From assembly GCA_040756015.1 (NCBI GenBank), contig JBFMAC010000004.1, positions 132,278 through 196,277 on the forward strand: a DNA stretch of 64,000 bases, in the 5' to 3' direction. A program made the translations under genes and the position numbers. The notes under the pieces are model-generated. The model was not told the origin of the DNA and did no database searches. It saw nothing but the letters and a program-made list of their open reading frames with translations. Shown here one piece after another: positions 37,463 to 50,146 of the stretch (within the stretch, counting starts at the first letter, position 1; every line of letters starts with the position of its first letter). This DNA comes from Pseudomonadota bacterium. Lineage in GTDB: Bacteria; Pseudomonadota; Gammaproteobacteria; Burkholderiales; JBFMAC01.

Positions 37463-37487
37463 TCAAAAAATCAGCAACTTTTCGGGC

Positions 37488-37505
37488 AAATGTCGTAAAA
37501 TGTCG
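37488..37505 (+). promoter_or_regulatory. Tandem direct repeat AAATGTCG(N2)AAATGTCG in the operon leader
   Basis: AAATGTCGTAAAATGTCG, 10-bp phasing, 46 nt upstream of ATG 37551. Function unknown. Confidence 0.2.
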
Positions 37506-37550
37506 CAGCCTTAAGCGGTAACTCGCTAAAAAGAGGGGGGAAACTCAGGG

Positions 37551-40109
37551 ATGAAGCGGGGCGCATTCTGGAAGTCCGAGTGGCTCATCGGCTTGGGGCT
37601 GGCTTTGCTGATGCTGCTTGTGGCGGGTGGCGACCTGATGCAGAGCCTGGAGCGCAAGGCCTACGACCTCGGCGTGCTGGCCTCCAGCCGAACCCCCAGC
37701 GATCGCGTCGCCGTGATCGCCATCGACGACCAGAGTATCTCCAACATCGGCCGCTGGCCGTGGTCGCGCGAGGTACACGCCAAAATGATCGACCTCCTCG
37801 CGGGAGCGCAGGCCAAGGTGGTCGGCAACACCGTGTTTTTCTCCGAGCCTCAGTCCGACGCCGGACTCGCCTACATCAACAAACTCAACAAATTTTTCTC
37901 CGCGTCCCGGTTCAGGAACGCAATTGATCCGGCATTGCAGCAGGAGGCCGTGCAGCTTGCCGGTATGTTGCAGGAGGCCGAGCAAGACTTGAACGCCGAC
38001 CGCAAGCTGGCGCAAAGCATTGCCCAGGCCGGCAACGTGGTGCTGGCGATGGCGTTCCAGTTGGGCGAGCCGCGCGGCAATCCGGATCACCCCCTGCCCG
38101 ACTACCTGACGAAAAACGCGCTGCCCAATGTCGTCGATGCGGGGGGCGCGGCGGAGATGGGGCTGCTGCCGCTGTCCACGCTGTCGGCGGTGGTGCCGAT
38201 CGCTGAGCTTGGCATGCAGGCGGCTGCCATCGGCTACCTCAACCTGACTCCCGACCACGATGGCGGGGTGCGCTCCGAGCCCCTCGTGCTGCGCCATTAC
38301 GACCACTATTACCCGTCGCTGCCCTTGCTGCTGGCGGCGAAGAGCCTCAACCTGCAAGCTGCCGATGTCCAGGTGGTGCTGGGCGAGGGCGTAAGTCTGG
38401 GCAAGCTGCATATCGCCACCGATCCCGAATTGCGCATGAACACGTTTTTCTACAGGGACGCGGAGCGGCCGGCGTTCCAGGTGGATTCGTTTTACGACGT
38501 CTATAGCGGCAAAATTCCCGTGAGCAAATACGCCGGCAAGATTGTGCTGATCGGCGCCACCGCGCAGGGCGTGGGCGCGCCGCAGGTGACGCCAGTGTCA
38601 CCTGCGATGGCGCCGGTGCTGGTGCTGGCGCATTCGGTGTCGAGCATTCTGCAGGAGGACTTTTTCGTCGTGCCAGGCTGGGGTGTGTGGGCGGAGAAAG
38701 GCGTGTTCCTGCTTGTCGCGCTGTACCTGATGCTGGCGTTGCCGCGCCTCAAGGCAGGGCTGGCGGCGCTGTTTACCGCGCTGCTGTTCGTTGCCCTGCT
38801 GATCGCGCATTTCGCGCTGATGGTGGGGCAGTCGATGTGGCTGCAACTGATGACGCCGGCGGCGCTGTTGCTGATTGGCCATCTGCTGCTCACCACCAAG
38901 CGCTTCCTGGTGACCGAGCGCGGCAAGGAAAAATCCGAGGCAGAGTCGGCCGAGTCGAACCGCATGCTGGGCCTGGCGTTCCAGGGGCAGGGCCAGCTCG
39001 ATATGGCGTTCGACAAATTCCGCAAGCTGCCGATGGACGACGGTGTGATGGATCTTCTCTACAACCTGGCGCTCGATTTCGAGCGCAAGCGCCAGTTCAA
39101 CAAGGCCGAGGCGGTGTACCAGCACATGGCCGCCTACAACGCGAAATTCCGTGACCTCGAACAGAAGCTCAGCCGCGCCAAGGCGATGTCGGAAACCGTG
39201 ATCCTGGGCGGCGGCAGCGCCAGCGCGGCGATCAGTGGTACCGTGCTGATGGCGGGCGGTGGCGTGGAAAAGCCGATGCTGGGCCGCTACCAGGTGGAGA
39301 AGGAACTGGGTAAGGGCGCCATGGGTGTGGTCTACATGGGGCGCGACCCTAAGATCGGTCGCGTGGTGGCGATCAAGACAATGGCGTTGTCTCAGGAGTT
39401 CGAGGAAGACGAGTTGCAGGAGGTCAAGGAGCGTTTTTTCCGCGAGGCGGAAACGGCGGGACGGCTCAGCCATCCCAACATCGTCACCATCTATGATGCC
39501 GGCGAGGAGCACGACCTTGCCTATATCGCCATGGAACTGCTGAAAGGCAAGGACCTGGTACCCTATACCAAGCCAGATAACCTGTTGCCGCTGCCGAAAG
39601 TGCTGTCCGTCATCGCGCGCGTGGCCGATGCGCTGGGCTATGCGCATGCGCAGCATGTGGTGCATCGCGACATCAAGCCGGCTAATATTATGTATGAGCC
39701 GGAAGACGACATGGTAAAGGTGACCGATTTCGGCATCGCGCGCATCACCGATTCGAGCAAGACCAAGACCGGTATGGTGCTGGGCACGCCGTCGTACATG
39801 TCGCCGGAGCAGTTGGCGGGCAAGAAGATCGACGGGCATTCCGACCTCTTTTCGCTTGGGGTGACCTTGTACCAGTTGTGTTGCGGGCAACTGCCTTTTC
39901 AGGGTGACTCGATGGCGCAACTGATGTACAAGATCGCCAACGACCCGCCGCTGGATATCCGTACCCTGCGTCCCGATCTGCCGGTTGGCGTGGTGTTGGT
40001 GATCGCCAGGGCGATCGCCAAGCAGCCGGAGGCGCGTTACCAGACCGGCGAGGAAATGGCGCAGGCAATCCGCCAGTGTGCGGCGGCGATCAGCAACGAA
40101 GGAGCATGA
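37551..40109 (+). CDS. CHASE2-sensor transmembrane Ser/Thr protein kinase
   Basis: N-terminal CHASE2 (VAVIAIDDQSISNIGRWPWSR). TM cluster and TPR-like linker. Hanks kinase motifs GKGAMGVV, VAIK, HRDIKPAN, DFGIA, SPE. Confidence 0.9.
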   Translation: MKRGAFWKSEWLIGLGLALLMLLVAGGDLMQSLERKAYDLGVLASSRTPSDRVAVIAIDDQSISNIGRWPWSREVHAKMIDLLAGAQAKVVGNTVFFSEPQSDAGLAYINKLNKFFSASRFRNAIDPALQQEAVQLAGMLQEAEQDLNADRKLAQSIAQAGNVVLAMAFQLGEPRGNPDHPLPDYLTKNALPNVVDAGGAAEMGLLPLSTLSAVVPIAELGMQAAAIGYLNLTPDHDGGVRSEPLVLRHYDHYYPSLPLLLAAKSLNLQAADVQVVLGEGVSLGKLHIATDPELRMNTFFYRDAERPAFQVDSFYDVYSGKIPVSKYAGKIVLIGATAQGVGAPQVTPVSPAMAPVLVLAHSVSSILQEDFFVVPGWGVWAEKGVFLLVALYLMLALPRLKAGLAALFTALLFVALLIAHFALMVGQSMWLQLMTPAALLLIGHLLLTTKRFLVTERGKEKSEAESAESNRMLGLAFQGQGQLDMAFDKFRKLPMDDGVMDLLYNLALDFERKRQFNKAEAVYQHMAAYNAKFRDLEQKLSRAKAMSETVILGGGSASAAISGTVLMAGGGVEKPMLGRYQVEKELGKGAMGVVYMGRDPKIGRVVAIKTMALSQEFEEDELQEVKERFFREAETAGRLSHPNIVTIYDAGEEHDLAYIAMELLKGKDLVPYTKPDNLLPLPKVLSVIARVADALGYAHAQHVVHRDIKPANIMYEPEDDMVKVTDFGIARITDSSKTKTGMVLGTPSYMSPEQLAGKKIDGHSDLFSLGVTLYQLCCGQLPFQGDSMAQLMYKIANDPPLDIRTLRPDLPVGVVLVIARAIAKQPEARYQTGEEMAQAIRQCAAAISNEGA

Positions 40110-40933
40110 TGAGTTTGGTGAAGGTGTTGGAAATGGCAAGCGCGACCGATCCCGGCCTGGTGCGTTCGCATAACGAGGACAGCATTGCGGTCGATGCCGA
40201 CATCGGACTGGCGGTGCTGGCCGATGGCATGGGCGGTTACAACGCCGGCGAGGTGGCGAGTGGCATCGCGGTGTCGCTGATCATGAGCGAAATGCAACAG
40301 GCGCTGCCGTCGGTCGATCCGCACGCAGCGGGCGGCGTCAGCGGCGAGACCATCGGTGAGGTGCTGCTGCGTGACAAGATCGGGCGTGCCAATGCCTCGA
40401 TCTTCCAGGCTGCGATCAGCCAGCCGCAGTATGCCGGCATGGGCACCACGCTGGTGGCGGCGCTGTTTTACGATAACCGCGTCAGTGTCGGCCACATCGG
40501 CGATTCGCGCATGTACCGACTGCGCGCCGGGCAGTTCGAGCAGATCACGCGCGACCACTCGCTGTTACAGGAGCAGATCGACAGCGGCATGATCAGCAAG
40601 GAGATGGCGCGGCTGTCGCAGAACAAGAACCTGGTGACGCGCGCGGTGGGCATCGACCCCGACGTCGAGGCGGAAATCCATACGCATGCCGTGCAGGCGG
40701 GCGACATCTACCTGATTTGCTCCGACGGTCTCAACGACATGGTCGAGGACGAGGAGATCGGCGCCACGCTGGGCATGCTGGAAGCGAACCTGCCGCTGGC
40801 GGCGACACAGCTGGTGCAGATGGCCAACGACAACGGCGGGCGCGACAACATTTCAGTGATTCTGATAAAGGTGTTGAGCGAGTTTCCGGCGCAGGGTGGT
40901 TGGTTCGCAAAATTCCTATCGTGGTTTAAATAA
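40106..40933 (+). CDS. PP2C-family Ser/Thr phosphatase
   Basis: RSHNEDS, LADGMGG, GDSRMY and CSDGL motifs. ATGA overlap with the kinase stop. Confidence 0.9.
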   Translation: MMSLVKVLEMASATDPGLVRSHNEDSIAVDADIGLAVLADGMGGYNAGEVASGIAVSLIMSEMQQALPSVDPHAAGGVSGETIGEVLLRDKIGRANASIFQAAISQPQYAGMGTTLVAALFYDNRVSVGHIGDSRMYRLRAGQFEQITRDHSLLQEQIDSGMISKEMARLSQNKNLVTRAVGIDPDVEAEIHTHAVQAGDIYLICSDGLNDMVEDEEIGATLGMLEANLPLAATQLVQMANDNGGRDNISVILIKVLSEFPAQGGWFAKFLSWFK

Positions 40934-40945
40934 CGAGGTATTGCC

Positions 40946-41686
40946 ATGGCAAAGTTGATACTCAGTCTGGACGGTGCGGTGTTGCGCGAGATCGTGCTCA
41001 ACAAGGAGCGCACTACCATAGGCCGCAAGGAGCACAATGACGTCGTCATCGACAACCTGGCGGTGAGCGGCGATCACGCGCAGATCGTCAGCATCCTCAA
41101 CGACTCGTTCCTGGAAGACCTCGACAGCACCAACGGCACGCTGGTCAACGGCAACCCGATCAAGAAGCATTTCCTGCAGAACGGCGACGTTATCGAGATC
41201 GGCAAGTACAAGCTCAAGTATCTCAACGAAGGCGCGGCTGCCGGCCATGCGGCGGAAGAGTTCGAGAAGACCATGATCCTGCGGCCGTCCGCGCACACGC
41301 CTGCTGCGCCCGCGCCCAATCGTACCGGCGACGACACCCTGGTGAATACGCCGGCCTACTCGCCCGGGCGCGAAGAGGAAATGACCGCCAAGGTGGCGGC
41401 CATGCCGGCGGGCCATCTGCCGGTGGCCACGATCCAGTTGCTGAGCGGCCCGAATGCCGGCAGGGAACTGGAACTGGCCAAGACCCTGGTGACCATCGGA
41501 AAGCCGGGGGTGCAGGTGGCGGTGATCGCGCGCCGGCCGCACGGCTATTTCATCACCCATGTCGAAGGCGCTAATTTCCCGGTGCTGAACGGCAAGGTGC
41601 TTGATGCCCAGGCGCACCCGCTCAACGACCACGACGTGATCGAGCTGGCCGGCGTGAAAATGGAATTTTTCTTTAAAAGCGAGTAG
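40946..41686 (+). CDS. FHA-domain protein (canonical N-terminal FHA plus degenerate C-terminal FHA-like domain)
   Basis: TIGRKEHNDVVIDNLAVSGDHAQI...STNGTLVNG at the N-terminus. A Pro/Ala linker, then a second TIGKPG...VLNGKV module. Confidence 0.85.
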   Translation: MAKLILSLDGAVLREIVLNKERTTIGRKEHNDVVIDNLAVSGDHAQIVSILNDSFLEDLDSTNGTLVNGNPIKKHFLQNGDVIEIGKYKLKYLNEGAAAGHAAEEFEKTMILRPSAHTPAAPAPNRTGDDTLVNTPAYSPGREEEMTAKVAAMPAGHLPVATIQLLSGPNAGRELELAKTLVTIGKPGVQVAVIARRPHGYFITHVEGANFPVLNGKVLDAQAHPLNDHDVIELAGVKMEFFFKSE

Positions 41687-41726
41687 CGGCAAGGCAGCGG
41701 GACGCCCCATCCATTTACGGGACAGC

Positions 41727-43967
41727 ATGGAGAGACTCAAACAGAGTTGGGTGCGTATCGTTTTCGGGGTACTGCTCGTCCTGGTGTTTCTCGGCAACGC
41801 GATACACTTTTATTCCATCCCCTTCATCCAGCAGATCGAAGCGATCATTTACGATGCGCGCCTGCGCCTGACTATGTCGCGCAGCGTCGACGAGCGCATT
41901 GTCATCCTCGACATCGATGAGAAGAGCCTGGCCGCAGAGGGCCACTGGCCGTGGCCGCGCAACCGCATGGCCAGCCTGGTCGACAAGCTGTTCGACCGCT
42001 ACGGCATCGCCGTGCTCGGCTTTGACGTGGTGTGGGCGGAGAAGGACGAAAGCTCCGGCCTCAAGGTGCTAGACCAGCTTGCCGCGCGCGAACTGAAAGG
42101 CGATGGCGCCTACCAGGCGGTGTTGGCGCAGATACGTCCCAAGCTCGACTATGACGAATTGTTCGCCAGGTCGATCAAGGGCAGACGCGTGGTGCTGGGG
42201 TACTTCTTCTCCGGCGCGCTCGGCGACCAGGAGGCCACCACCACCGGCATGCTGCCCAAGCCGGCGCTGGTCGCCGGTACCTTCCAGGGCAGGAACATCC
42301 CCTTCATCGCCGCCACCGGCTACAGCGCCAACCTGCCGGTGTTGCAACAAAGCGCGGCGGGCGGGGGACATTTCACCCAGTTGCCGGACATCGATGGCGT
42401 GACCCGGCGCGTGCCGATGCTGATGGAGTACAAGGGCGCTTATTACGAAACCCTGTCGCTGGCGATGATGCGCGCCATGCTGGATTTCCCCGAGGTCGTT
42501 CCCGGCTATCCCGACGACGTATGGAGCAAAAGCTATCCGGGGCTGGAGTGGATCGAAGTGGGCGGCATGAAGATACCGGTGGACGAGAATGCACGTGCAT
42601 TGATTCCCTATCGCGGTCGCGCGGGCAGCTTCAAATACGTCTCCATCACCGATGTACTGCATGATCGCGTGCCGGCGGCGAGCCTCAAGGATAAGATCGT
42701 GATACTCGGCACCACCGCGCCGGGCCTGCTCGACTTGCGTTCCACGCCGGTGTCGCCGGTCTACCCCGGCGTCGAGGTGCACGCCAACCTGATTTCCGGC
42801 ATGCTCGACGGCGACATCAAGCAGAAACCTCCCTACGTGATGGGGGCAGAGTTCACCCTGCTGCTGGTTTCCGGCCTGCTGGTTGCGTTGCTGGTGCCGC
42901 TGCTCAGTCCGCTGCGCGCGACCCTGGTGACGCTGGCGGTGCTGGGCGCGGCGGTTGCGATCAACGTGGTGGTCTGGCATTACGGCAACCTGGTGCTGCC
43001 GTTGGCCTCCGGCTTGATGCTGATTTCGCTGATTTACGCGATGGACATGGCGTACGGCTTTTTTGTCGAGGCCCGCGCCAAGCGCCAGATCACCGGCCTG
43101 TTCGGGCAATACGTGCCGCCCGAACTGGTCGACGAGATGAGCAAGAACCCGGAGAACTTTTCGATGGCGGGTGAAAGCCGCGAAATGAGCGTGCTGTTCT
43201 CCGACGTGCGCGGTTTCACCAGCATCTCCGAGGGGCTGGACCCGAAGGAGCTGACGCAGTTGATGAACGAGTTCCTTACCCCTCTCACCAAGGTGATATA
43301 CAAGCACCGCGGTACCATCGACAAGTACATGGGCGATTGCATCATGGCGTTCTGGGGCGCCCCGCTCGACGATGCACAGCACGCGCGCCATGCCATCCTC
43401 GCCGGACTGGAGATGCAGAAGACGCTGCACGAATTGCAACCTTACTTCAAGCAGCGCGGCTGGCCGGCGATCGAGGTCGGCATAGGCGTCAACACCGGGC
43501 GCATGAGCGTGGGCAACATGGGTTCGGAGATCCGTCTGGCCTATACTGTGATGGGCGATGCGGTGAACCTCGCCTCGCGCCTGGAGGGCATCACCAAACA
43601 GTATGGCGTCGGCATGGTGGTGGGGGAGGCGACCAGGGAAAAGGTGCCGGATTTCGTGTTCCGCGAGCTGGATCGCGTGCGCGTGAAGGGCAAGGAGGCG
43701 CCGGTGGCGATCTATGAACCGCTTGGTCCTGCCGGGGAAGTTGCCCAAAGCGTGCTGGATGAGATTAAACTATTCCAGCAGGCGCTCAAATATTACCGCG
43801 CGCGGGATTGGGATCGCGCCGAGTTGCAGTTGCTCAACCTGCAAAAGACGGTGCCTGAAGGCTCGGAGTTCCATTTGTACCAGCTTTACCTTAAACGTAT
43901 TGCGCGTTACCGCGCCGAGCCGCCTGCCGGGGACTGGGACGGCGTGACGACATTCGAGACCAAGTGA
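41727..43967 (+). CDS. CHASE2-sensor class III adenylate/guanylate cyclase
   Basis: CHASE2 (IVILDIDEKSLAAEGHWPWPR) and TM cluster. Cyclase motifs VLFSDVRGFT, IDKYMGDCIMAFWG, MGDAVNLASRLE. Confidence 0.9.
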   Translation: MERLKQSWVRIVFGVLLVLVFLGNAIHFYSIPFIQQIEAIIYDARLRLTMSRSVDERIVILDIDEKSLAAEGHWPWPRNRMASLVDKLFDRYGIAVLGFDVVWAEKDESSGLKVLDQLAARELKGDGAYQAVLAQIRPKLDYDELFARSIKGRRVVLGYFFSGALGDQEATTTGMLPKPALVAGTFQGRNIPFIAATGYSANLPVLQQSAAGGGHFTQLPDIDGVTRRVPMLMEYKGAYYETLSLAMMRAMLDFPEVVPGYPDDVWSKSYPGLEWIEVGGMKIPVDENARALIPYRGRAGSFKYVSITDVLHDRVPAASLKDKIVILGTTAPGLLDLRSTPVSPVYPGVEVHANLISGMLDGDIKQKPPYVMGAEFTLLLVSGLLVALLVPLLSPLRATLVTLAVLGAAVAINVVVWHYGNLVLPLASGLMLISLIYAMDMAYGFFVEARAKRQITGLFGQYVPPELVDEMSKNPENFSMAGESREMSVLFSDVRGFTSISEGLDPKELTQLMNEFLTPLTKVIYKHRGTIDKYMGDCIMAFWGAPLDDAQHARHAILAGLEMQKTLHELQPYFKQRGWPAIEVGIGVNTGRMSVGNMGSEIRLAYTVMGDAVNLASRLEGITKQYGVGMVVGEATREKVPDFVFRELDRVRVKGKEAPVAIYEPLGPAGEVAQSVLDEIKLFQQALKYYRARDWDRAELQLLNLQKTVPEGSEFHLYQLYLKRIARYRAEPPAGDWDGVTTFETK

Positions 43968-44731
43968 TGAAACTGAGAGTGCTGGGATGCAGCGGGGGTA
44001 TAGGCGGGAAGTTGCGCACGACCTCGTTCCTGCTCGACAATGATGTGCTGATCGACGCTGGCAGTGGCGTCGGCGATTTGAGCATCGCCGAAATGGTGTT
44101 CATCGACCATATCTTCATCACCCATTCCCATCTTGACCATGTCGCCATGATTCCGCTGCTGGTGGATACCGTGGGCGGCATGCGCGACAGGCCGATCACG
44201 CTGCATGCCACGGAGGAGGTGCTGGATATCCTCAGGCAGCACATGTTCAACTGGAAGCTCTGGCCCGATTTCACCTGCATCCCCGATCCTGATCATCCAT
44301 TCCTGCGCTACCGCGCCATCGCCATGGGAGAGACAGTCACCTTGGATGGGCGCGCGATCACTGTGCTGCCCGCGGTGCACACCGTGCCGGCGGTGGGTTA
44401 CCAGATCGACAGCGGCAGCGCGAGTCTGGTGTTCACCGGCGACACCACAAGCCAGGAGGAGTTCTGGCGTATCGTCAACAGCATCGAGAACCTGCGTTAC
44501 CTGATCATCGAGACGGCCTTCTCCAACGCCGAGCGCGACCTGGCGATTGCTTCCAAGCATCTGTATCCGTTGTTGCTGGCGGAAGAGCTGGCCAAGTTCA
44601 AGCGCGAGGCGGAAATTTATATCACTCATTTGAAACCGGGCGAGATCGAACTGACGATGCAGGAAATCTACGATTGCGCGGCGCAATACCGACCGCATAT
44701 GCTTTACAACGGCAAGGTGTTCGATTTCTGA
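43964..44731 (+). CDS. Class-II 3',5'-cyclic-nucleotide phosphodiesterase (metallo-beta-lactamase fold)
   Basis: LRVLGCSGG start and THSHLDHVAMIPLL (HxHLDH signature). Start GTG 43964 or ATG 43967 overlaps the cyclase stop. Confidence 0.8.
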   Translation: MMKLRVLGCSGGIGGKLRTTSFLLDNDVLIDAGSGVGDLSIAEMVFIDHIFITHSHLDHVAMIPLLVDTVGGMRDRPITLHATEEVLDILRQHMFNWKLWPDFTCIPDPDHPFLRYRAIAMGETVTLDGRAITVLPAVHTVPAVGYQIDSGSASLVFTGDTTSQEEFWRIVNSIENLRYLIIETAFSNAERDLAIASKHLYPLLLAEELAKFKREAEIYITHLKPGEIELTMQEIYDCAAQYRPHMLYNGKVFDF

Positions 44732-44733
44732 TC

Positions 44734-45807
44734 ATGCCGCTGGATGCACAGACCTTGGCGCGGTTCGAGCCGTTTTCCTCCATGGCGGAAAAGACGGTGC
44801 GCCAGCTTGCCGCAGTGGGCGTGACGGTCAGGGCGCACCCAGGCGCCGATCCGTTTGCCGACAACGATTTCAGCCACCACTTGGTATACCTGATCCGGGG
44901 CGGGTTGCGCCTCGCTTACGGTGACAGCGAGGCCGAGGTGGTGGTGGCCGGCAGCGAGCAGGCACGCTATCCGCTGGGGCGCGACCGTCCCGGCCTGCTG
45001 GCGACACGCGCCATGGACGACGTCGAGCTCGCGCGCATGGACGAGGAGCTGGTCGAAACGGCGGTGGCGTGGGATCAGCTCACGCCGCCGGGGCAGGAAG
45101 CAGACGGCGAAGACCAGGCACGGCGCGCCGACCGCGTGGTCGACACCGGCATGTTCAGCGCGATGATGTTCAAATACGGTGTGCTGGCCATGTTGCCGCC
45201 GAAAAATGTCATCGACCTGATCGGCAAGATGCGCATGATGACGGTGCGGCGCGGCGATGTCGTCGTGCGCGAGGGAGACCCGGCCGATTGTTATTATATG
45301 ATCGAGAACGGCCAGGCACTGGTGACTCGTCAGGTTGGCGACCAGAATGTGGTGTTGGCCGAGCTGCGCAGCGGCGGGGCTTTCGGCGAGGACGCGCTGG
45401 TTTCCGGTGGTCAGCGCAACGCCACCGTGACGATGAAAAGCGACGGCATTTTGCTGACGCTGGAAAAAAGCGCCTTCCTGGATCTGATGCGCCGGCCGCT
45501 GCTCAACGAGCTGACCATGCCGGAAGCCGAGCAGCGGGTGGCAGCGGGGGCGGTGTGGCTTGACCTGCGTTACCCGCCGCAGTATCGGCGCGGCCGGCTG
45601 CCGGGGGCAGTCAACATCCCGCTCAGCGAATTGCGTACCGCGCTCAGTGTGCTCGACAAGAGCAAGGAATACGTGGTGTATTGCCATAACGGACGCAGCG
45701 GTGCCATTGCCGCTTTCGTCATGTCGGAGAACGGTTTCAAGGCTTATACCTTGAAGAACGGTTGGCAGCCGGAAGCGGCACCAATATCGCGCGAGGGATC
45801 GCTATGA
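44734..45807 (+). CDS. Tandem cyclic-nucleotide-binding domains fused to a rhodanese domain
   Basis: The second CNB has GDPADCYYMIENG...GGAFGEDALVSGGQRNATV (phosphate-binding-cassette-like). C-terminal rhodanese with VVYCHNGRSG. Start is 2 nt after the PDE stop. Confidence 0.8.
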   Translation: MPLDAQTLARFEPFSSMAEKTVRQLAAVGVTVRAHPGADPFADNDFSHHLVYLIRGGLRLAYGDSEAEVVVAGSEQARYPLGRDRPGLLATRAMDDVELARMDEELVETAVAWDQLTPPGQEADGEDQARRADRVVDTGMFSAMMFKYGVLAMLPPKNVIDLIGKMRMMTVRRGDVVVREGDPADCYYMIENGQALVTRQVGDQNVVLAELRSGGAFGEDALVSGGQRNATVTMKSDGILLTLEKSAFLDLMRRPLLNELTMPEAEQRVAAGAVWLDLRYPPQYRRGRLPGAVNIPLSELRTALSVLDKSKEYVVYCHNGRSGAIAAFVMSENGFKAYTLKNGWQPEAAPISREGSL

Positions 45808-48179
45808 ACACGATGTTCCAGAACAAGCCGGGCACGCAGGATAACCTGGCGGAGCGCCTGGGGTTTTCCAAGCAGTTGCAGGCGGTGACCAACAAGATCC
45901 ACTCCACCAGCAACATCGACGAGATCATGCTGGAAGTGAGCCAGGATATCTGCCAGTTGTTCAATGCCGACCGCCTGACCATCTATGCAGTGGCGGAGGA
46001 CAGATCGGCCATCGTTTCCAAGGTCAAGACCGGGCTCAATTCGTTCAAGGACCTGAAGCTGCCGATCAACGAGCAGAGCGTTGCCGGCTATGTCGCAGTG
46101 AACAAGGTGCCGGTCAACATCAAGGACGTTTACGACGATGTTGAGCTGCACTCGTTGAGTCCGCACCTGCATTTCCTGCAGGAAGTGGATCGCCGCACCG
46201 GTTACCGTACCAAGCAGATGCTGGTGGCGCCGGTGGTGGAATCGGCCAGCGGCGAACTGCTCGGCGTGGTGCAACTGATCAACAGCCGTACCGGGCAGCC
46301 GTTCCCGCAGATCGCGGAGGAGGGCGTGGGCACACTGGCCGAGACGCTGGCGATTGCCTTCAAGCAGCGGCAACGGATGAGCGGCACCTTGCGCGGCAAG
46401 TATGACGCGCTGGTGGCGAATGCGGTACTGTCGGCGGAGGAGCTGGAACTGGCCACGCGCTCGGCGCGGCGCAAGGGGATCAACATCGAGGACGTGCTGA
46501 TCGATGAATTCCAGGTCAAGGTCGGTGCCATCGGCGAGGCGCTGGCGGCCTTTTTCCAGGTGCCTTACGAGGGTTACCGCGCCGACCGCATCAAGCCGGT
46601 AGACCTGTTGAAGAACCTGAAGCGAGAATACGTGGAAAGCAGCGCTTGGTTGCCGGTGGACGACACCAAGGAGGGGCTGATCATCCTTACCACCGACCCG
46701 GAGCGGGTCAAGAGTTCGCGCATCGTCAACAACGTTTTCCCGAAAAGCAGGCTGGTCTACAAGGTCTGCACCCACCGGGAGTTCGTCAGCACGCTCGATT
46801 TGTTCTACGGTGGCGAGGCCACCATGGACGCCACTTCGATCGGCGATCTGCTGTCTACCATGAGCGATGAGGAATCCGAGGAGGCGATTGGTTCCAGCGA
46901 CGATATCTCCGCAGCCGCCGACAACGAACTGGTGAAGCTGGTCAACAAGATCATCGTCGATGCATATCACCAGGGTGCCTCGGACATCCATATCGAACCT
47001 TACCCGGGCAAATCCAAGACGGAAATCCGCTTCCGCAAGGACGGTACGCTGATGCCTTATATTTCCGTGCCGCCTTCCTATCGCAATGCGATTGCGGCGC
47101 GTATCAAGATCATGTGCGACCTGGACATCTCGGAAAAGCGCAAGCCGCAGGACGGCAAGATCAAGTTCAAGAAATTTGGCCCGCTCGACATCGAACTGCG
47201 TGTGGCGACCATACCATCGCAAGGCGGCGTCGAGGACATCGTGATGCGTATCCTCGCCGCCGGCGAGCCGATCCCGCTCGACAAGCTCGGCCTGAGCGAA
47301 TACAACCTGAAGACGGTGAAGGAAATCATCAGCAAGCCTTACGGCCTGTTTTTCGTGTGCGGCCCGACCGGTTCCGGCAAGACCACCACGCTGCACTCGG
47401 TGTTGGGGTATATCAATACACCGGAAACCAAGATATGGACAGCCGAAGACCCGGTTGAAATCACGCAGAAAGGCTTGCGCCAGGTGCAGATGAACCCCAA
47501 GGCGGGGCTGACCTTTGCGGTGGCAATGCGATCCTTTCTGCGTGCCGACCCGGACGTGATCATGGTGGGCGAGATGCGCGACAAGGAAACCACCGCAATC
47601 GGCATCGAAGCGTCGCTGACCGGCCACCTGGTGTTTGCCACCCTGCATACCAACAGCGCGCCGGAGTCCATCATCCGCCTGCTCGACATGGGTATGGACC
47701 CTTTCAACTTTGCTGACGCCATGCTGGGCATCCTGGCGCAGCGGCTGGCGAAGCGCCTGTGCGGCAAGTGCAAGCGGCCCTATCATCCCAGCGAGGATGA
47801 AATCCGTCTGCTGCTGGAGGAATATACCTTGGAGTTGCAGCACACCGCCAAGTGGAAAAAGGACCCGCAAGCGGCTTCCCAGGAAATTCTCGACGAATGG
47901 AAGAAGGGTTTCGGGGGGGGGGATGGGCAGTTCACGCTGTACCAGCCGGTGGGCTGCGAGGTGTGCAACAACACCGGCTACAAGGGGCGCGTCGGCCTGC
48001 ATGAATTACTGGTCGGCACCGATGCCGTCAAGAAGAACATCCAGGAACATGCGCGCGTGGCGGAGGTGCTGGCGACCGCGCTGGAAGACGGCATGCGGAC
48101 CCTGAAGCAGGATGGCATCGAAAAGGTGCTGTCGGGGATCACCGACATGAAGCAAGTGCGCGCAGTGTGCATCAAATAA
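45804..48179 (+). CDS. GAF + T2SSE_N + GspE/PilB-type hexameric secretion ATPase (orphan)
   Basis: 791 aa. N-terminal GAF (aa ~25-185), T2SSE_N-like region. Walker A GPTGSGKTT, Asp box EDPVE, Walker B VIMVGEMRD, His box GHLVFATLHTN. Tetracysteine CGKC...CEVC. ATGA overlap with the upstream gene. Confidence 0.9.
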   Translation: MNTMFQNKPGTQDNLAERLGFSKQLQAVTNKIHSTSNIDEIMLEVSQDICQLFNADRLTIYAVAEDRSAIVSKVKTGLNSFKDLKLPINEQSVAGYVAVNKVPVNIKDVYDDVELHSLSPHLHFLQEVDRRTGYRTKQMLVAPVVESASGELLGVVQLINSRTGQPFPQIAEEGVGTLAETLAIAFKQRQRMSGTLRGKYDALVANAVLSAEELELATRSARRKGINIEDVLIDEFQVKVGAIGEALAAFFQVPYEGYRADRIKPVDLLKNLKREYVESSAWLPVDDTKEGLIILTTDPERVKSSRIVNNVFPKSRLVYKVCTHREFVSTLDLFYGGEATMDATSIGDLLSTMSDEESEEAIGSSDDISAAADNELVKLVNKIIVDAYHQGASDIHIEPYPGKSKTEIRFRKDGTLMPYISVPPSYRNAIAARIKIMCDLDISEKRKPQDGKIKFKKFGPLDIELRVATIPSQGGVEDIVMRILAAGEPIPLDKLGLSEYNLKTVKEIISKPYGLFFVCGPTGSGKTTTLHSVLGYINTPETKIWTAEDPVEITQKGLRQVQMNPKAGLTFAVAMRSFLRADPDVIMVGEMRDKETTAIGIEASLTGHLVFATLHTNSAPESIIRLLDMGMDPFNFADAMLGILAQRLAKRLCGKCKRPYHPSEDEIRLLLEEYTLELQHTAKWKKDPQAASQEILDEWKKGFGGGDGQFTLYQPVGCEVCNNTGYKGRVGLHELLVGTDAVKKNIQEHARVAEVLATALEDGMRTLKQDGIEKVLSGITDMKQVRAVCIK
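47913..47922 (+). repeat. G10 homopolymer inside the GAF-GspE ATPase CDS
   Basis: GGGGGGGGGG encoding GGG(D). It is the longest mononucleotide run I noticed in the window. Confidence 0.9.
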
Positions 48180-48199
48180 TGCCGGCGGGGAGGTAAGCA

Positions 48200-49807
48200 A
48201 TGACCTTGCCCAATGCCGCTGATCTGCTGCGGCGGCTGGAGGAACTGAACCGTATCGGGGTGTCACTCTCCAAGGAGAAGGACATCGACCGTCTGCTGGA
48301 AGCCATCCTGCTCGCCGCCAAGACCATAGCTGGCGCGGATGGCGGCACGCTCTACCGCGTCCAAGACGGCAAGCTGCATTTTAAGATACTGCGCAACGAT
48401 ACCCTCAACATCGCCATGGGTGGTACCACCGGGGTGCCGATTCCCTTCGAACCGTTATCCATGTATGACGAGCAGGGCAGGCCGAACAATTCTATGGTGG
48501 TGGCCCATGCCGTGCTGCACGACGTCACCGTGAACATACCGGATGCGTATAGCGCGGAAGGCTTCGATTTTTCCGGCACGCGCCAGTTCGACAAGAAGAC
48601 CGGTTACCGCTCACAGTCGTTCCTGACCGTGCCGATGAAGGATCACGAGGAACAGATCATCGGCGTGCTGCAACTGATCAATGCCAAGCACCCCGTGAGC
48701 GGGGAAATCGTGCCGTTTGCCGAGGCAGACCAGCGCCTTGCCGAATCGCTGGCGTCGCAGGCCGCCATTGCGCTGACCAACCGCATGCTGATCAACCAGC
48801 TGGAAGTCCTGTTCGAATCTTTCATCAATTTGATCAACGCCGCGATCGACGACAAGTCGCCCTATACCGGCGGGCACTGCGCACGCGTGCCGGTGCTGAC
48901 CATGATGCTGGCCGAGGCGGTGAATAAAACTTCCGTCGGCCCGCTCAGGGATTTCCGCATGAGCGCGGCGGACTTTTATGAACTGAAGATCGCCGGCCTG
49001 TTGCACGATTGCGGCAAAGTGACCACGCCGGTGCATGTGGTGGACAAGGCGACCAAGCTGCAAACCATCTACGACCGCATCCACCTGATCGACACCCGCT
49101 TCGAGGTGGTCAAGCGCGACGCCGAGATAGCCATGCTGCGCAACGAGGCGGCCGATGGCGAAGGATCGCGTCGGCGCTGCCGTGAGGTGATGGAGCAGAT
49201 CAGCAGCGACCGCGAGTTCCTGCGCGCTTGCAACATAGGCAGTGAAAAAATGGACGAGGATGAGGTGCAGCGCGTCCACACTATTGCTGGGCGCTACCGT
49301 TGGCGCAATGAACGCGGCGAAGAAGTGCCTTTCCTCAGCGAAGACGAGGTGAAGAACCTAACCATTCGCAGCGGCACGCTCACGCCCGAGGAACGGCAGA
49401 TCATCAACCATCACATCGATGTGACCATCCAGATGCTGGAGGCGCTGCCCTGGCCAAAGCACCTGAAGAACGTGCCGGAATATGCCGGCGGTCATCACGA
49501 GCGCATGGACGGCAAAGGCTATCCGCGCGGGCTCACGCGCGAGCAGATGTCGGTGCAGGCGCGCATCATGGGTATCGCCGATATTTTTGAGGCGCTGACC
49601 GCACGTGACCGCCCATACAAGAAGGGCAAGACCCTCACCGAGGCGCTGCACATCCTCGGTAAATTCAAGCTGAACGGCCATATCGACCCCGACCTCTTCG
49701 ATGTACTCATCCGCGAAAAAGTCTACTTGAACTATGGCCACCACTTCCTGGAAGCGGAACAGGTGGATGAGGTCGACGAGCGCGCGATCCCCGGTTATGT
49801 GCCGTGA
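48200..49807 (+). CDS. GAF-domain HD-GYP phosphohydrolase (putative c-di-GMP phosphodiesterase)
   Basis: N-terminal GAF (TGYRSQSFLTVPM...IGVLQLINA). HD (LLHDCGK) and GGHHERMDGKGYP motifs. Confidence 0.9.
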   Translation: MTLPNAADLLRRLEELNRIGVSLSKEKDIDRLLEAILLAAKTIAGADGGTLYRVQDGKLHFKILRNDTLNIAMGGTTGVPIPFEPLSMYDEQGRPNNSMVVAHAVLHDVTVNIPDAYSAEGFDFSGTRQFDKKTGYRSQSFLTVPMKDHEEQIIGVLQLINAKHPVSGEIVPFAEADQRLAESLASQAAIALTNRMLINQLEVLFESFINLINAAIDDKSPYTGGHCARVPVLTMMLAEAVNKTSVGPLRDFRMSAADFYELKIAGLLHDCGKVTTPVHVVDKATKLQTIYDRIHLIDTRFEVVKRDAEIAMLRNEAADGEGSRRRCREVMEQISSDREFLRACNIGSEKMDEDEVQRVHTIAGRYRWRNERGEEVPFLSEDEVKNLTIRSGTLTPEERQIINHHIDVTIQMLEALPWPKHLKNVPEYAGGHHERMDGKGYPRGLTREQMSVQARIMGIADIFEALTARDRPYKKGKTLTEALHILGKFKLNGHIDPDLFDVLIREKVYLNYGHHFLEAEQVDEVDERAIPGYVP

Positions 49808-49819
49808 TCCCGGCTGTGC

Positions 49820-50146
49820 TTAATGCGCCAATGCCCACTCCACCAGGGTGTGGATGTCGGCTTCGTTGACGCGGCCCTTGTGCGGCGGCATGGCGACCTT
49901 GCCCCAGTTGCCGGAGCCGCCTTCCGTTACTTTCTTGGCCAGCGCTGCCGGCGCATCCTGGTTGCCCTTGTATTTTTGTGCGATCTCCTGGAACGAGGGT
50001 CCGAGGATTTTTTTGCTTTCGTCGTGGCAGTTCAGGCAGCCGCTTTTCCGCGCCAGCTTGAGGCCGGCTTCCATGTCTACCGCCGCGTGAACCTGGCTTG
50101 CAAACAGCAGGGCTGCGAAGGCAGCCGTCATCATCGAAGTTTTCAT
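49820..50146 (-). CDS. Periplasmic class I c-type cytochrome (c551/c552-like)
   Basis: Signal peptide MKTSMMTAAFAALLFASQVHA. Haem motif CLNCH. Distal Met in GKVAMPPH. Confidence 0.85.
   Translation of the reverse strand: MKTSMMTAAFAALLFASQVHAAVDMEAGLKLARKSGCLNCHDESKKILGPSFQEIAQKYKGNQDAPAALAKKVTEGGSGNWGKVAMPPHKGRVNEADIHTLVEWALAH

What the first reader, a model, noticed from the sequence alone, without database searches (positions are those of the whole stretch)
41727..45807. Self-contained cyclic-nucleotide circuit: CHASE2 cyclase, class-II phosphodiesterase and a CNB-CNB-rhodanese reader
The cyclase has both metal Asp residues (FSDVRGF, GDCIMAF) and a Lys in IDKYMGD. By analogy to class III cyclases this favours ATP as substrate, which is inference. 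Its stop overlaps the start of an MBL-fold class-II PDE (HSHLDH signature), a PDE class that I believe is uncommon in bacteria. Two nucleotides later starts a protein with one degenerate and one canonical cNMP-binding domain (FGEDAL...RNATV) fused to a rhodanese module with a Cys loop (CHNGRSG). A cNMP receptor whose output is a sulfurtransferase or phosphatase-like rhodanese domain is, as far as I know, uncharacterised.
Basis: partly seen in the sequence, partly recalled or inferred. Interest (0 to 1): 0.6.

Follow-up and report, generated by a model that had tools for sequence, protein, structure and literature searches.

The report
cAMP module with rhodanese-tipped receptor
Three adjacent genes for a membrane sensor that makes cAMP, an enzyme that probably destroys it, and an uncharacterised cAMP-binding protein ending in a sulfur-transfer domain are real and conserved, but they sit inside an eight-gene signalling operon that in many related bacteria lies next to type IV pilus genes.

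Summary
Window 41727-45807 encodes three tightly packed genes. The first is a CHASE2 class IIIb adenylyl cyclase with both metal Asp, a Lys/Thr substrate pair, and Asn and Arg. The second is a 254-aa metallo-beta-lactamase-fold phosphodiesterase with HSHLDH. The third is a 357-aa protein with a degenerate CNB domain, a canonical CNB domain and a rhodanese domain.

The interpretation needs two corrections. First, the triad is not self-contained here. It is the middle of a + strand operon: CHASE2-Ser/Thr kinase, PP2C, FHA, cyclase, PDE, CNB-rhodanese, GAF-PilB/GspE-like ATPase, GAF-HD-GYP. This order is conserved across betaproteobacterial families, often followed by a type IV pilin gene. Both downstream proteins carry cNMP-type GAF domains, so they are candidate additional cAMP readers. 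Second, this PDE family is common, not rare.

A distant lineage does carry the bare triad, so it is a genuine evolutionary module. I found no characterisation of any CNB-rhodanese protein; the architecture is only catalogued. I rate it a new variant of a known kind, of moderate to good interest.

The parts
37551..40109 (+). CHASE2-Ser/Thr protein kinase (852 aa): TM1, periplasmic CHASE2, 3 TM, cytoplasmic kinase
   Evidence: Pfam CHASE2 177 bits and Pkinase 183 bits. Topology. Present in 50 of 62 loci with enough upstream flank.
40106..40933 (+). PP2C-type Ser/Thr phosphatase; its ATG overlaps the kinase stop (ATGA)
   Evidence: NCBIfam Stp1_PP2C_phos 245 bits, above the cut-off of 230. Junction read. 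Present in 62 of 62 loci.
40946..41686 (+). FHA-domain protein (246 aa)
   Evidence: Pfam FHA 77 bits at residues 23-86. Present in 58 of 62 loci.
41727..43967 (+). CHASE2 class IIIb adenylyl cyclase (746 aa)
   Evidence: Pfam. PDB alignments to Cya2/6fht, CyaB 3r5g and CyaC 1wc0, with metal Asp x2, Lys, Thr, Asn and Arg in place. K/T conserved in orthologues. Topology.
43967..44731 (+). MBL-fold phosphodiesterase (254 aa), candidate cAMP phosphodiesterase
   Evidence: Pfam Lactamase_B_2 and PDEase_II. AlphaFold pLDDT 86. Foldseek matches YhfI, RNase Z, yeast PDE1 (TMq 0.80) and Apyc1. Present in 61 of 62 loci.
44734..45807 (+). Degenerate CNB, canonical CNB and rhodanese protein (357 aa); PBC FGEDAL..RNATV; Cys317 loop CHNGRSG
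45804..48179 (+). GAF, MshEN-like and PilB/GspE-type ATPase (791 aa); its ATG overlaps the CNB-rhodanese stop (ATGA)
   Evidence: Pfam T2SSE 387 bits, GAF and MshEN. The GAF best matches the cAMP-binding GAFs of CyaB2 (1ykd, E 1.6e-26). Walker A/B, His box and 2x CxxC are intact, and there is no c-di-GMP MshEN motif. Junction read. Present in 60 of 61 loci.
48200..49807 (+). GAF-HD-GYP phosphodiesterase (535 aa), probable c-di-GMP hydrolase
   Evidence: Pfam HD_5 148 bits and GAF. PDB matches PmGH 4mcw, PDE5 GAF-A and CyaB2. HD, HHE and GYP motifs are intact. Present in 60 of 61 loci.

Best explanation
The three genes form a genuine cAMP signalling module. In this genome it works as part of a larger, vertically conserved eight-gene operon, which in many relatives lies next to type IV pilin genes.

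Shown by sequence and homology:
- A membrane protein with a periplasmic CHASE2 sensor carries a catalytically complete class IIIb adenylyl cyclase.
- An MBL-fold phosphodiesterase follows. It belongs to the RNase Z / PDE1 / Apyc1 structural group.
- A soluble protein then follows with a ligand-dead CNB domain, a CNB domain that keeps every cNMP-contacting residue of the phosphate-binding cassette, and a PspE-like single rhodanese domain. Its active-site Cys is invariant.
- The next two genes encode a PilB/GspE-type ATPase and an HD-GYP enzyme. Each is headed by a GAF domain of the cNMP-binding kind.

Inferred:
- An unknown extracytoplasmic signal, sensed by the two paralogous CHASE2 proteins, drives cAMP synthesis and Thr phosphorylation in parallel.
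- The PDE resets cAMP.
- cAMP is read by up to three receptors: the CNB-rhodanese protein, the GAF-ATPase and the GAF-HD-GYP. This would couple the signal to pilus-type ATPase activity and to a fall in c-di-GMP.

Within the CNB-rhodanese protein the rhodanese domain starts about eight residues after the CNB-B C-terminal helix. cAMP-induced lid movement most likely changes access to, or positioning of, the Cys317 loop. In that way it would gate sulfur transfer (a persulfide) or partner binding.
For: - Anatomy, domains and junctions.
- Cyclase residues and the precedent for Lys giving ATP specificity.
- PDE fold. The family is named as a cNMP PDE by NCBI.
- CNB-rhodanese: tandem CNB fold. The PBC (FGE..L..RNA[TS]) and the Cys are kept in 80 of 80 loci and 31 of 31 aligned homologues. 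The rhodanese domain is closest to PspE and to the rhodanese domains of CoA-persulfide reductases.
- Operon conservation in 80 species of Gallionellaceae, Rhodocyclaceae, Sideroxydans, Azospira, Sulfuritalea and others.
- The GAF domains are closest to cAMP/cGMP-binding GAFs.
- A cAMP-activated GAF-HD-GYP, Tlr0485, is documented.
- Pilin genes follow the cluster in 35 of 57 loci, and they follow the ATPase directly in another lineage.
- The triad stands alone in a distant lineage.
Against: - No biochemical data exist for any of these proteins.
- The PDE is placed in class II only through the HxHxDH region. Its nearest solved relatives by sequence are YhfI and RNase Z-type enzymes.
- The residue after the PBC Arg is an invariant Asn, which is not the PKA (Ala) or PKG (Thr) type, so cAMP rather than cGMP is inferred from the cyclase alone.
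- About 13% of loci lack the cyclase and 2 of 74 lack the PDE, yet they keep an intact CNB-rhodanese gene. The receptor therefore does not depend on the adjacent enzymes.
- The window has no prepilin motif anywhere in its 64 kb.
- The window's CNB-rhodanese is an unusually divergent copy: 42% identity to orthologues against a family median of 52%. Its loop reads CHNGRSG instead of CQSGRRS.
- GAF ligand specificity was judged only from overall similarity.
Confidence: 0.6

Rival explanations
1. One reading: a self-contained cAMP circuit (cyclase, PDE, receptor) whose only output is a cAMP-regulated thiosulfate-type sulfurtransferase. On this view the flanking genes are unrelated neighbours.
For: The bare triad exists as a three-gene unit in a distant lineage (L084, L085). 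The Cys is invariant and the loop has the six-residue sulfurtransferase form CxxGxR. The nearest solved rhodaneses are sulfur-handling ones.
Against: In the window and in 80 species the triad is embedded in a fixed eight-gene order. The stop and start codons of the receptor and the ATPase overlap. Neighbours are retained in 98-100% of loci for PP2C, the PDE, the ATPase and the HD-GYP, against 87% for the cyclase. The same CNB-CNB-rhodanese module also heads long coiled-coil receptor-like proteins, which points to a signalling role rather than a metabolic one.
Confidence: 0.2
2. The rhodanese domain is not an enzyme output but a sensor or docking surface. Its Cys would report sulfane-sulfur or redox state, or the domain would simply bind a partner. 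The protein would then be a two-input adaptor (cAMP plus thiol state) that regulates the PilB-like ATPase or another partner.
For: The receptor is the fastest-evolving protein of the operon, with 52% median identity among orthologues against 58-70% for its neighbours. That is typical of adaptor surfaces. Its gene is translationally coupled to the ATPase gene. The module sits at the cytoplasmic tip of long coiled-coil, single-TM, FGE-sulfatase-domain proteins. A few long relatives have Ser in place of Cys. Non-catalytic rhodanese docking domains are known in MAP-kinase phosphatases (from my own knowledge).
Against: Cys conservation is near-universal, and the loop keeps the catalytic consensus with two Arg. 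A pure docking domain would not need these.
Confidence: 0.25
3. The cluster is a Pycsar-like anti-phage system: a cyclase makes a cyclic nucleotide alarm signal, a CNB-domain effector responds, and an Apyc1-like MBL enzyme acts as an internal off-switch.
For: PADLOC PycC models hit the cyclase domain at 110 bits, and PycTIR models hit the CNB domain weakly. Precomputed Pfam lists weak Anti-Pycsar_Apyc1 hits for the PDE family. Foldseek finds Apyc1 (7u2r, TMq 0.69).
Against: The PADLOC hits are at the level of generic domains. The cyclase has the purine (ATP) Lys/Thr pair and a periplasmic CHASE2 sensor. The effector has no TM, TIR or other killing domain. The operon is syntenic across families at 55-70% protein identity within housekeeping surroundings, which indicates vertical inheritance and not a defence island.
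Confidence: 0.02
4. The MBL protein is not a cyclic-nucleotide phosphodiesterase. It would be an RNase Z/YhfI-type nuclease or a general diesterase, and cAMP would be cleared by another enzyme.
For: The best sequence and fold matches are YhfI, ElaC/RNase Z and beta-CASP nucleases. NCBIfam's best hit is RNase Z, far below its cut-off. The PDEase_II match covers only 58 residues.
Against: The gene sits between a cyclase and a cNMP receptor in 62 of 74 loci, and also in the bare triad. Yeast PDE1 gives the highest query TM-score, 0.80. The PDEase_II score exceeds Pfam's gathering cut-off.
Confidence: 0.1

Closest known systems
Pseudomonas aeruginosa cAMP system (CyaB cyclase, CpdA phosphodiesterase, Vfr and CbpA receptors), which controls type IV pili
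   Same: The cyclase catalytic domain is 130 bits to CyaB (3r5g), with the same Lys/Thr pair. Both have a cyclase, PDE and receptor logic and an association with type IV pilus genes. From my own knowledge, CbpA also pairs a degenerate with a canonical CNB domain.
   Different: The sensor here is CHASE2, not MASE2. The PDE is MBL-fold, not the class III metallophosphoesterase CpdA. The receptor carries a rhodanese domain rather than a DNA-binding domain. All the genes lie in one operon together with a kinase, phosphatase and FHA set.
Synechocystis Cya2 (CHASE2 nucleotide cyclase; PDB 2w01 / 6fht)
   Same: It has the same CHASE2-TM-cyclase architecture and is the best solved match (141 bits).
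   Different: Cya2 has Glu/Gly and makes cGMP. The window enzyme has Lys, the residue that converts Cya2 to an adenylyl cyclase, together with Thr.
CNB domains fused to bacterial enzymes: mycobacterial cAMP-regulated acetyltransferase Pat (4ava, 4onu) and Bdellovibrio Bd1971 (CNB-EAL; 6hq2)
   Same: A canonical CNB domain sits directly upstream of a catalytic domain. The sequence matches these CNB domains. cAMP-dependent activation of Bd1971 is documented.
   Different: The output domain is a rhodanese, for which no cNMP regulation has been described. There is also an extra degenerate CNB domain at the N-terminus.
Single-domain rhodanese sulfurtransferases PspE/GlpE and the C-terminal rhodanese domains of CoA-persulfide / NADH-polysulfide reductases (2jtq, 8a56, 3nta)
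   Same: The fold matches, the Cys heads a six-residue loop (family consensus CQSGRR), and these are the best PDB sequence matches for residues 263-345.
   Different: The domain is cytoplasmic and fused to a tandem CNB module. The window copy has CHNGRSG, with only one Arg in the loop.
cAMP-activated GAF-HD-GYP Tlr0485 (Thermosynechococcus) and the cAMP-binding GAF domains of Anabaena CyaB2 (1ykd)
   Same: The last gene of the operon has the GAF-HD-GYP architecture with intact HD/HHE/GYP motifs. The GAF domains of both downstream proteins are closest to cNMP-binding GAFs. The precedent appears.
   Different: Ligand binding was not tested. The HD-GYP domain carries an insertion of about 100 residues relative to PmGH. 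A GAF domain on a PilB/GspE-type ATPase has no characterised precedent that I found.
Class II cyclic-nucleotide phosphodiesterases (yeast PDE1, Vibrio fischeri CpdP) and the phage/host Apyc1 MBL enzymes
   Same: MBL fold, the HSHLDH motif, a PDEase_II score above the Pfam cut-off, and fold similarity to 4ojv and 7u2r.
   Different: It is about 100 residues shorter than PDE1. The profile match is limited to the metal-binding motif, and no NCBIfam equivalog applies.

Membership tests
Class III nucleotidyl cyclase, subclass IIIb adenylyl cyclase | Two metal-binding Asp residues | tested here: met
   FSDVRGF and GDCIMAF align with the metal Asp residues of CyaB, CyaC and Cya2.
Class III nucleotidyl cyclase, subclass IIIb adenylyl cyclase | Adenine-specifying Lys, with Thr (not Asp) at the second specificity position | tested here: met
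   The Lys in IDKYMGD aligns with Lys488 of the Cya2 E488K adenylyl cyclase variant. The Thr in AYTVMGD aligns with the Thr of CyaB and CyaC. The pair is conserved in orthologues.
Class III nucleotidyl cyclase, subclass IIIb adenylyl cyclase | Transition-state Asn and Arg | tested here: met
   AVNLASR aligns with the Asn/Arg motif of CyaB and CyaC.
Class III nucleotidyl cyclase, subclass IIIb adenylyl cyclase | cAMP synthesis, possibly stimulated by bicarbonate | not testable with these tools
   Needs an enzyme assay.
Class II (PDEase_II, PF02112) cyclic-nucleotide phosphodiesterase | MBL fold with an HxHLDH metal motif | tested here: met
   HSHLDH is present. The AlphaFold model has pLDDT 86 and matches MBL enzymes, including PDE1 4ojv at TMq 0.80.
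Class II (PDEase_II, PF02112) cyclic-nucleotide phosphodiesterase | Full-length match to the family profile | tested here: inconclusive
   The score of 41.7 bits is above the cut-off of 23.7, but only profile positions 83-142 of 340 align. A PDB profile search gives PDE1 E 3.7e-7 over the same 59 residues.
Class II (PDEase_II, PF02112) cyclic-nucleotide phosphodiesterase | Hydrolysis of 3',5'-cAMP or cGMP | not testable with these tools
   Supported only by context: the gene lies between a cyclase and a CNB protein in 62 of 74 loci.
Cyclic-nucleotide-binding (CNB/CAP) domain receptor | Eight-stranded beta-barrel with a phosphate-binding cassette: Gly-Glu for the ribose, Arg for the phosphate, then Ala-Thr | tested here: met
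   Met for the second domain. FGEDAL..RNATV is present, with G218, R228 and A230 invariant, E219 and T231 nearly invariant, and N229 nearly invariant. The cassette is kept in 80 of 80 loci. Pfam gives 69 bits.
Cyclic-nucleotide-binding (CNB/CAP) domain receptor | The same cassette in the N-terminal domain | tested here: not met
   There is no Pfam hit at E 0.1. The barrel fold is retained, but the PBC positions read A..PL without Gly-Glu or Arg. It is a degenerate domain that presumably does not bind ligand.
Cyclic-nucleotide-binding (CNB/CAP) domain receptor | Measured binding of cAMP or cGMP | not testable with these tools
   Needs ITC, DSF or equilibrium dialysis.
Rhodanese sulfurtransferase (single-domain PspE/GlpE type) | Rhodanese alpha/beta fold | tested here: met
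   Pfam Rhodanese gives 53 bits. PDB matches include PspE, CoA-persulfide reductase RHD and other rhodaneses. Model pLDDT is about 83-96 over residues 260-340.
Rhodanese sulfurtransferase (single-domain PspE/GlpE type) | Catalytic Cys at the head of a six-residue loop (CxxGx[R/T/S]), not the seven-residue CX5R loop of Cdc25/Acr2 phosphatases | tested here: met
   The window has CHNGRS and the family consensus is CQSGRR. There is no Arg at +6. The Cys is kept in 31 of 31 homologues and 80 of 80 loci. Loop length was judged from sequence, not from a solved structure.
Rhodanese sulfurtransferase (single-domain PspE/GlpE type) | Persulfide formation and sulfur-transfer activity | not testable with these tools
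   Needs a thiosulfate:cyanide or protein-persulfide assay.
Pycsar anti-phage system | A pyrimidine-specific cyclase plus a CNB effector with a TM or TIR killing domain, located in a mobile defence island | tested here: not met
   The cyclase has the purine-type Lys/Thr pair. The effector has a rhodanese and no TM. PADLOC gives only generic domain hits. Synteny across 80 species is vertical.
MshEN c-di-GMP receptor domain (in the downstream ATPase) | Two 24-residue motifs, RLGxxhhxxGhhxxxxLxxxLxxQ | tested here: not met
   Pfam MshEN gives 28-32 bits. Neither the strict motif nor the published relaxed motif (PMC5013675) occurs anywhere in the protein.

The most novel reading that the evidence does not exclude
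The CNB-CNB-rhodanese protein is a new class of cyclic-nucleotide effector. cAMP binding would gate a reactive rhodanese cysteine, so the second messenger is converted into protein persulfidation or sulfur transfer. Conversely, the sulfane-sulfur or redox state of the Cys could set cAMP responsiveness. Either way, this would link sulfur/redox status to a PilB-type pilus ATPase and to c-di-GMP turnover in iron- and sulfur-cycling Betaproteobacteria. The same head module on long coiled-coil, single-TM, FGE-sulfatase-domain proteins would then be a widespread, unrecognised receptor output.
Probability: 0.2. Interest if true: 0.8.

Novelty: new variant of a known kind. Interest (0 to 1): 0.55.

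Why it matters
Bacterial cAMP signalling is understood mainly through CRP-type transcription factors. Only a few enzyme-linked CNB receptors are known, such as the acetyltransferase Pat and the EAL protein Bd1971.

Here a CNB receptor with an invariant catalytic-type rhodanese cysteine is genetically tied to several partners: its own cyclase and PDE, a Ser/Thr kinase, phosphatase and FHA set, a GAF-regulated PilB-like ATPase, and a GAF-HD-GYP enzyme. The arrangement holds across at least 80 species of environmentally important Betaproteobacteria, including Gallionellaceae, Sideroxydans and Rhodocyclaceae.

If the rhodanese is a regulated output, it would add sulfur transfer to the repertoire of second-messenger outputs. 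The operon as a whole would be a compact, testable example of cAMP, c-di-GMP and Thr-phosphorylation acting together, probably on pilus-dependent behaviour such as attachment, aggregation or twitching.

Cultivated carriers exist (Azospira sp. I13, Sideroxydans, and the enrichment organism Ca. Ferrigenium), so the predictions can be tested directly.

Tried and rejected
- Promoter and terminator scan of 35000-51000: no more sites than in shuffles, and nothing inside the cluster.
- Rfam at gathering threshold on 30000-52000: no RNA family.
- PADLOC: only generic kinase, cyclase and CNB domain hits, so the defence reading is rejected.
- NCBIfam: no equivalog passes its cut-off for the cyclase, PDE, CNB-rhodanese, ATPase (PilB 492 bits against 676; GspE 453 against 630) or HD-GYP. 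Only the PP2C passes.
- PDB profile search with a 26-sequence PDE alignment: it does not lift PDE1 above the beta-CASP/RNase Z matches.
- The c-di-GMP motif of MshEN: absent from the ATPase.
- Cdc25-like phosphatase reading of the rhodanese: rejected, because there is no CX5R.
- Flanking genes (SpoT upstream, CysG downstream): not syntenic in any other locus, which sets the cluster boundaries at the kinase and the HD-GYP or pilin.
- Literature searches gave no description of the operon or of a characterised CNB-rhodanese protein. The terms combined CHASE2, FHA, HD-GYP, GspE, rhodanese, cNMP, PilB, GAF and persulfide. The library does not hold most subscription journals, so this is not proof of absence.
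- Model coordinates could not be read, so the distance between Cys317 and the CNB lid could not be measured.

Full report
**1. Observation**

- The cyclase gene runs 41727-43967. Its TGA (43965-43967) shares one base with the ATG of the next gene (43967-44731).
- That gene's TGA ends at 44731, and the third gene starts at ATG 44734 and ends at 45807.

Pfam assigns the following:
- First protein: CHASE2 (197 bits) and Guanylate_cyc (78 bits).
- Second protein: Lactamase_B_2 (58 bits) and PDEase_II (41.7 bits, cut-off 23.7, but only the HxHxDH region).
- Third protein: cNMP_binding (residues 170-254) and Rhodanese (residues 263-345).

All quoted motifs are present. The window comes from a metagenome-assembled genome, GCA_049320865.1, whose annotators called the same gene boundaries.

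**2. The cyclase**

A hydrophobicity scan gives TM1, a periplasmic CHASE2 domain, three further TM segments and a cytoplasmic catalytic domain.

The catalytic domain's best solved relatives are:
- the CHASE2-regulated cyclase Cya2 of Synechocystis (2w01) and its engineered adenylyl cyclase form (6fht);
- P. aeruginosa CyaB (3r5g, 130 bits);
- Spirulina CyaC.

In those alignments the window protein has both metal Asp residues, the Asn and the Arg. It has Lys where wild-type Cya2 has Glu. The single E488K exchange is what turns Cya2 from a guanylyl into an adenylyl cyclase (PMC5995499). The second specificity position is Thr, as in CyaB and CyaC. This is the class IIIb signature.

Every orthologue in which the motifs could be read has Lys and Thr: 63 loci with both, and none with another residue.

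**3. The phosphodiesterase**

By sequence, the nearest solved protein is B. subtilis YhfI (6kns). Next come beta-CASP and RNase Z enzymes, and yeast PDE1 (4ojv) matches only over the metal motif.

An AlphaFold model (pLDDT 86) matches YhfI, ElaC/RNase Z, yeast PDE1 and the cyclic-mononucleotide-degrading Apyc1 (7u2r). PDE1 gives the highest query TM-score, 0.80.

Membership of class II is therefore plausible but not established. Context is the stronger argument.

The family is not rare.

**4. The CNB-rhodanese protein**

The search of 5.8 billion proteins returned 86 hits. About 66 of them are full-length relatives at 31-47% identity, and almost all come from betaproteobacterial metagenomes.

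In a 31-sequence alignment the following are invariant or nearly invariant:
- the phosphate-binding cassette: F217, G218, A221, L222, R228 and A230 are invariant, and E219, N229 and T231 are nearly invariant;
- the rhodanese Cys317 and Gly320.

The loop consensus is CQSGRRS. This is the six-residue sulfurtransferase form, close to that of PspE, and it lacks the CX5R of Cdc25-type phosphatases. The rhodanese part best matches PspE and the rhodanese domains of CoA-persulfide and polysulfide reductases.

Across 80 species loci, the cassette and the Cys are present in all 80.

The N-terminal 116 residues give no Pfam hit. Two results nevertheless identify them as a CNB domain:
- They align profile-to-profile with the second CNB domain (probability 69%, E 4e-5).
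- In the AlphaFold model (pLDDT 83.5, pTM 0.70), together with the second domain they superpose on the tandem CNB-A/B of PKG and PKA regulatory subunits over about 260-290 columns.

The cassette positions of this first domain are not conserved as a cassette, so it is a degenerate CNB domain.

**5. The triad is not alone**

On the same strand, with short or overlapping junctions, lie eight genes:

| Gene | Coordinates |
|---|---|
| CHASE2-Ser/Thr kinase | 37551-40109 |
| PP2C | 40106-40933 |
| FHA protein | 40946-41686 |
| Cyclase | 41727-43967 |
| PDE | 43967-44731 |
| CNB-rhodanese | 44734-45807 |
| GAF-MshEN-like PilB/GspE-type ATPase | 45804-48179 |
| GAF-HD-GYP | 48200-49807 |

The junctions are as follows:
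- ATGA overlaps join the kinase to PP2C and the CNB-rhodanese gene to the ATPase gene.
- The cyclase stop shares one base with the PDE start.
- The PDE and CNB-rhodanese genes are 2 nt apart.
- The other gaps are 12, 40 and 20 nt.

No promoter- or terminator-like site stands out inside the cluster.

I fetched 80 species loci around relatives of the CNB-rhodanese protein (582 candidate stretches were confirmed, and the best 80 were kept). A tblastn search of the window proteins against them shows the same eight genes in the same order in most loci. The taxa include Gallionellaceae, Sideroxydans, Rhodocyclaceae, Azospira, Azonexus, Propionivibrio, Sulfuritalea, Methyloversatilis, Ca. Ferrigenium and Ca. 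Desulfobacillus.

Among loci with enough flank, the genes are present as follows:

| Gene | Loci with gene / loci assessed |
|---|---|
| PP2C | 62/62 |
| PDE | 61/62 |
| FHA | 58/62 |
| Cyclase | 54/62 |
| Kinase | 50/62 |
| ATPase | 60/61 |
| HD-GYP | 60/61 |

SpoT upstream and CysG downstream are not syntenic elsewhere, so they mark the boundaries of the cluster.

Ten loci lack the cyclase, and some of them keep a cyclase fragment (L031, L033). Two loci lack the PDE (L038, L049). One lacks the ATPase (L007).

**6. Additional candidate readers**

The ATPase's GAF domain has the cAMP-binding tandem GAFs of Anabaena CyaB2 as its best solved match (1ykd, E 1.6e-26). The cGMP/cAMP GAFs of PDE5, PDE2, PDE10 and PDE6 follow.

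The HD-GYP protein's GAF matches PmGH, PDE5 GAF-A and CyaB2.

A GAF-HD-GYP enzyme activated by cAMP, Tlr0485, is on record.

The ATPase keeps Walker A, the Asp box, the His box and the two CxxC pairs typical of assembly ATPases. Its MshEN-like segment has neither the strict nor the relaxed c-di-GMP motif. The HD-GYP keeps its HD, HHE and GYP motifs.

It is an inference, not a result, that these GAF domains bind the cAMP made by the cyclase in the operon.

**7. Link to type IV pili**

- In 35 of 57 loci with sequence beyond the HD-GYP gene, a type IVa pilin ORF (M..[21 protein letters not shown]...) lies on the same strand within 5 kb. In 22 of them it lies within 400 nt.
- In a second lineage (L082, L083, L086) the cluster ends with the GAF-ATPase, which is followed directly by two pilin genes, and there is no HD-GYP.
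- In a third, more distant lineage the triad stands alone next to a prepilin-type gene (L084, L085). In L081 the CNB-rhodanese gene is alone, next to Wzy_C and prepilin-type genes.
- The window itself contains no prepilin motif.

The other forms show that this module is usually wired into something larger.

**8. Evolutionary rate**

The window's CNB-rhodanese protein is 42% identical (median) to its orthologues. Its seven neighbours are 58-70% identical to theirs.

Among the other orthologues the CNB-rhodanese median is 52%. The family therefore evolves fastest in the operon, and the window copy is a further outlier. Its loop reads CHNGRSG, where more than 90% of relatives have Arg-Ser at the last two positions.

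Divergence is concentrated in the degenerate CNB domain (32%) and the linker (20%). The canonical CNB and rhodanese domains are about 48% identical.

**9. Wider family**

An exhaustive HMMER search of 1.84 billion representatives finds 1028 proteins at E <= 1e-30.

Many of them carry the whole CNB-CNB-rhodanese unit as the first roughly 345 residues of proteins 500-1900 residues long. Several of these end in an FGE-sulfatase domain.

In five of the twelve long examples scanned (three confirmed by Pfam to end in an FGE-sulfatase domain), the scan finds a single TM segment shortly before the C-terminal region. In the one read in full (P0268), the order is a long Glu/Ala/Arg-rich stretch that looks like coiled coil, one TM segment, a Pro-rich linker and the FGE-sulfatase domain. 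The Cys is kept in nearly all of them (CCDTGRRS or YCDTGRRS), with a few Ser exceptions.

This suggests the tri-domain unit is a reusable cytoplasmic signalling head rather than a housekeeping sulfurtransferase.

**10. Mechanism proposed**

- Shown: the domain composition, the catalytic and ligand-binding residues, gene order and conservation.
- Inferred: an extracytoplasmic cue acts on two paralogous CHASE2 proteins, giving cAMP synthesis and Thr phosphorylation. The PDE resets cAMP. cAMP is read by the canonical CNB domain and probably by the two GAF domains. The outputs are the activity of a pilus-type ATPase, c-di-GMP hydrolysis, and whatever the rhodanese Cys does.

The rhodanese domain begins about eight residues after the CNB-B C-terminal helix, and P255 and L256 in that linker are conserved. 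Ligand-driven lid movement is therefore the likeliest way to control the Cys loop, as in other CNB-enzyme fusions. Whether the Cys transfers sulfur or senses it cannot be decided here.

**11. Comparison and novelty**

The parts are all of known kinds: a CyaB/Cya2-like cyclase, an MBL phosphodiesterase, PKA-like tandem CNB domains, a PspE-like rhodanese, a PilB-like ATPase and a Tlr0485-like GAF-HD-GYP.

The CNB-rhodanese combination was listed in a 2007 census under 'Other_bacterial' (PMC2246266), and public pipelines annotate it. I found no study of its function and no description of the eight-gene operon in the searchable library.

I therefore class it as a new variant of a known kind. I score interest at 0.55. 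A specialist would not be astonished by the domains, but a conserved cAMP receptor with a catalytic-type rhodanese output, wired to pilus and c-di-GMP components, is a concrete and testable lead.

Noticed in passing
Proteins P0236, P0241, P0268 and others: The whole degenerate-CNB, CNB and rhodanese unit also forms the N-terminal roughly 345 residues of proteins 500-1900 residues long. Several end in an FGE-sulfatase domain. Five of twelve scanned have one TM segment shortly before the C-terminal region. In P0268 a 350+ residue Glu/Ala/Arg-rich stretch (probably coiled coil) and a Pro-rich linker flank that TM segment. The rhodanese Cys is kept in nearly all, with a few Ser exceptions. These receptor-like proteins appear uncharacterised.
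   Followed up: partly
L001-L080 downstream of the HD-GYP gene; L082, L083, L086; L081, L085: Type IVa pilin genes follow the cluster on the same strand in 35 of 57 loci, within 400 nt in 22 of them. In another lineage two pilin genes follow the GAF-ATPase directly. The bare triad and a lone CNB-rhodanese gene sit beside prepilin-type and Wzy_C genes. The window itself has no prepilin motif in its 64 kb.
   Followed up: yes
window 44734-45807: The window's CNB-rhodanese protein is an outlier in its own family: 42% identity to orthologues against 52% among the others, while neighbouring genes are not outliers. It deviates at two positions of the active-site loop that are more than 90% conserved (CHNGRSG against CQSGRRS). 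This could reflect altered or relaxed function in this genome.
   Followed up: partly
L031 8848-9150; L033 8849-9145; L003 7095-7388; L038 and L049: Some species loci have lost the cyclase, leaving cyclase fragments, or the kinase, leaving a C-terminal fragment. Two lack the PDE cleanly. All keep an intact CNB-rhodanese gene with its cassette and Cys. These are MAG contigs, so assembly artefacts are not excluded.
   Followed up: partly
window 31194-37462: The region just upstream of the cluster is dense in other signalling genes. It holds a PilZ protein after holB (31194-31562), a REC-HD-GYP response regulator (31924-33021, minus strand), a STAS protein (33175-33480), a REC-SpoIIE-HATPase_c partner-switching protein (33494-35215) and SpoT/RelA (35282-37462). 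SpoT, the only one of these searched for, was found in none of the other loci; the rest were not checked.
   Followed up: partly
window 48200-49807 (protein residues about 288-388): The HD-GYP domain is split by an insertion of about 100 residues relative to PmGH (4mcw). The HD motif lies before the insertion, and the HHE and GYP motifs lie after it.
   Followed up: no
window 45804-48179 (protein residues about 200-340): The ATPase has an MshEN-like domain by Pfam but lacks both the strict and the relaxed c-di-GMP-binding motif. A cNMP-type GAF domain sits in front of it. This may mark a switch of regulatory ligand from c-di-GMP to cAMP in this PilB/GspE paralogue.
   Followed up: partly
window 52822-55360 and 58170-59435; L082, L083, L086 (MoaC): Molybdate ABC transporter genes and moeA lie a few kb downstream in the window, and moaC lies near the cluster in another lineage. 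Rhodanese domains supply sulfur in molybdenum-cofactor synthesis, and NCBIfam gives weak MoeB rhodanese-domain hits. This is probably coincidence, but I did not test it.
   Followed up: no
window 2319-3980 (minus strand): A methyl-accepting chemotaxis protein with HAMP and MCPsignal domains is fused to a C-terminal PilZ domain.
   Followed up: no
window 40946-41686 (protein residues about 150-246): The C-terminal half of the FHA protein gives only a marginal Yop-YscD_cpl/FHA-like hit (E 7e-4). It may be a second, divergent FHA domain.
   Followed up: no
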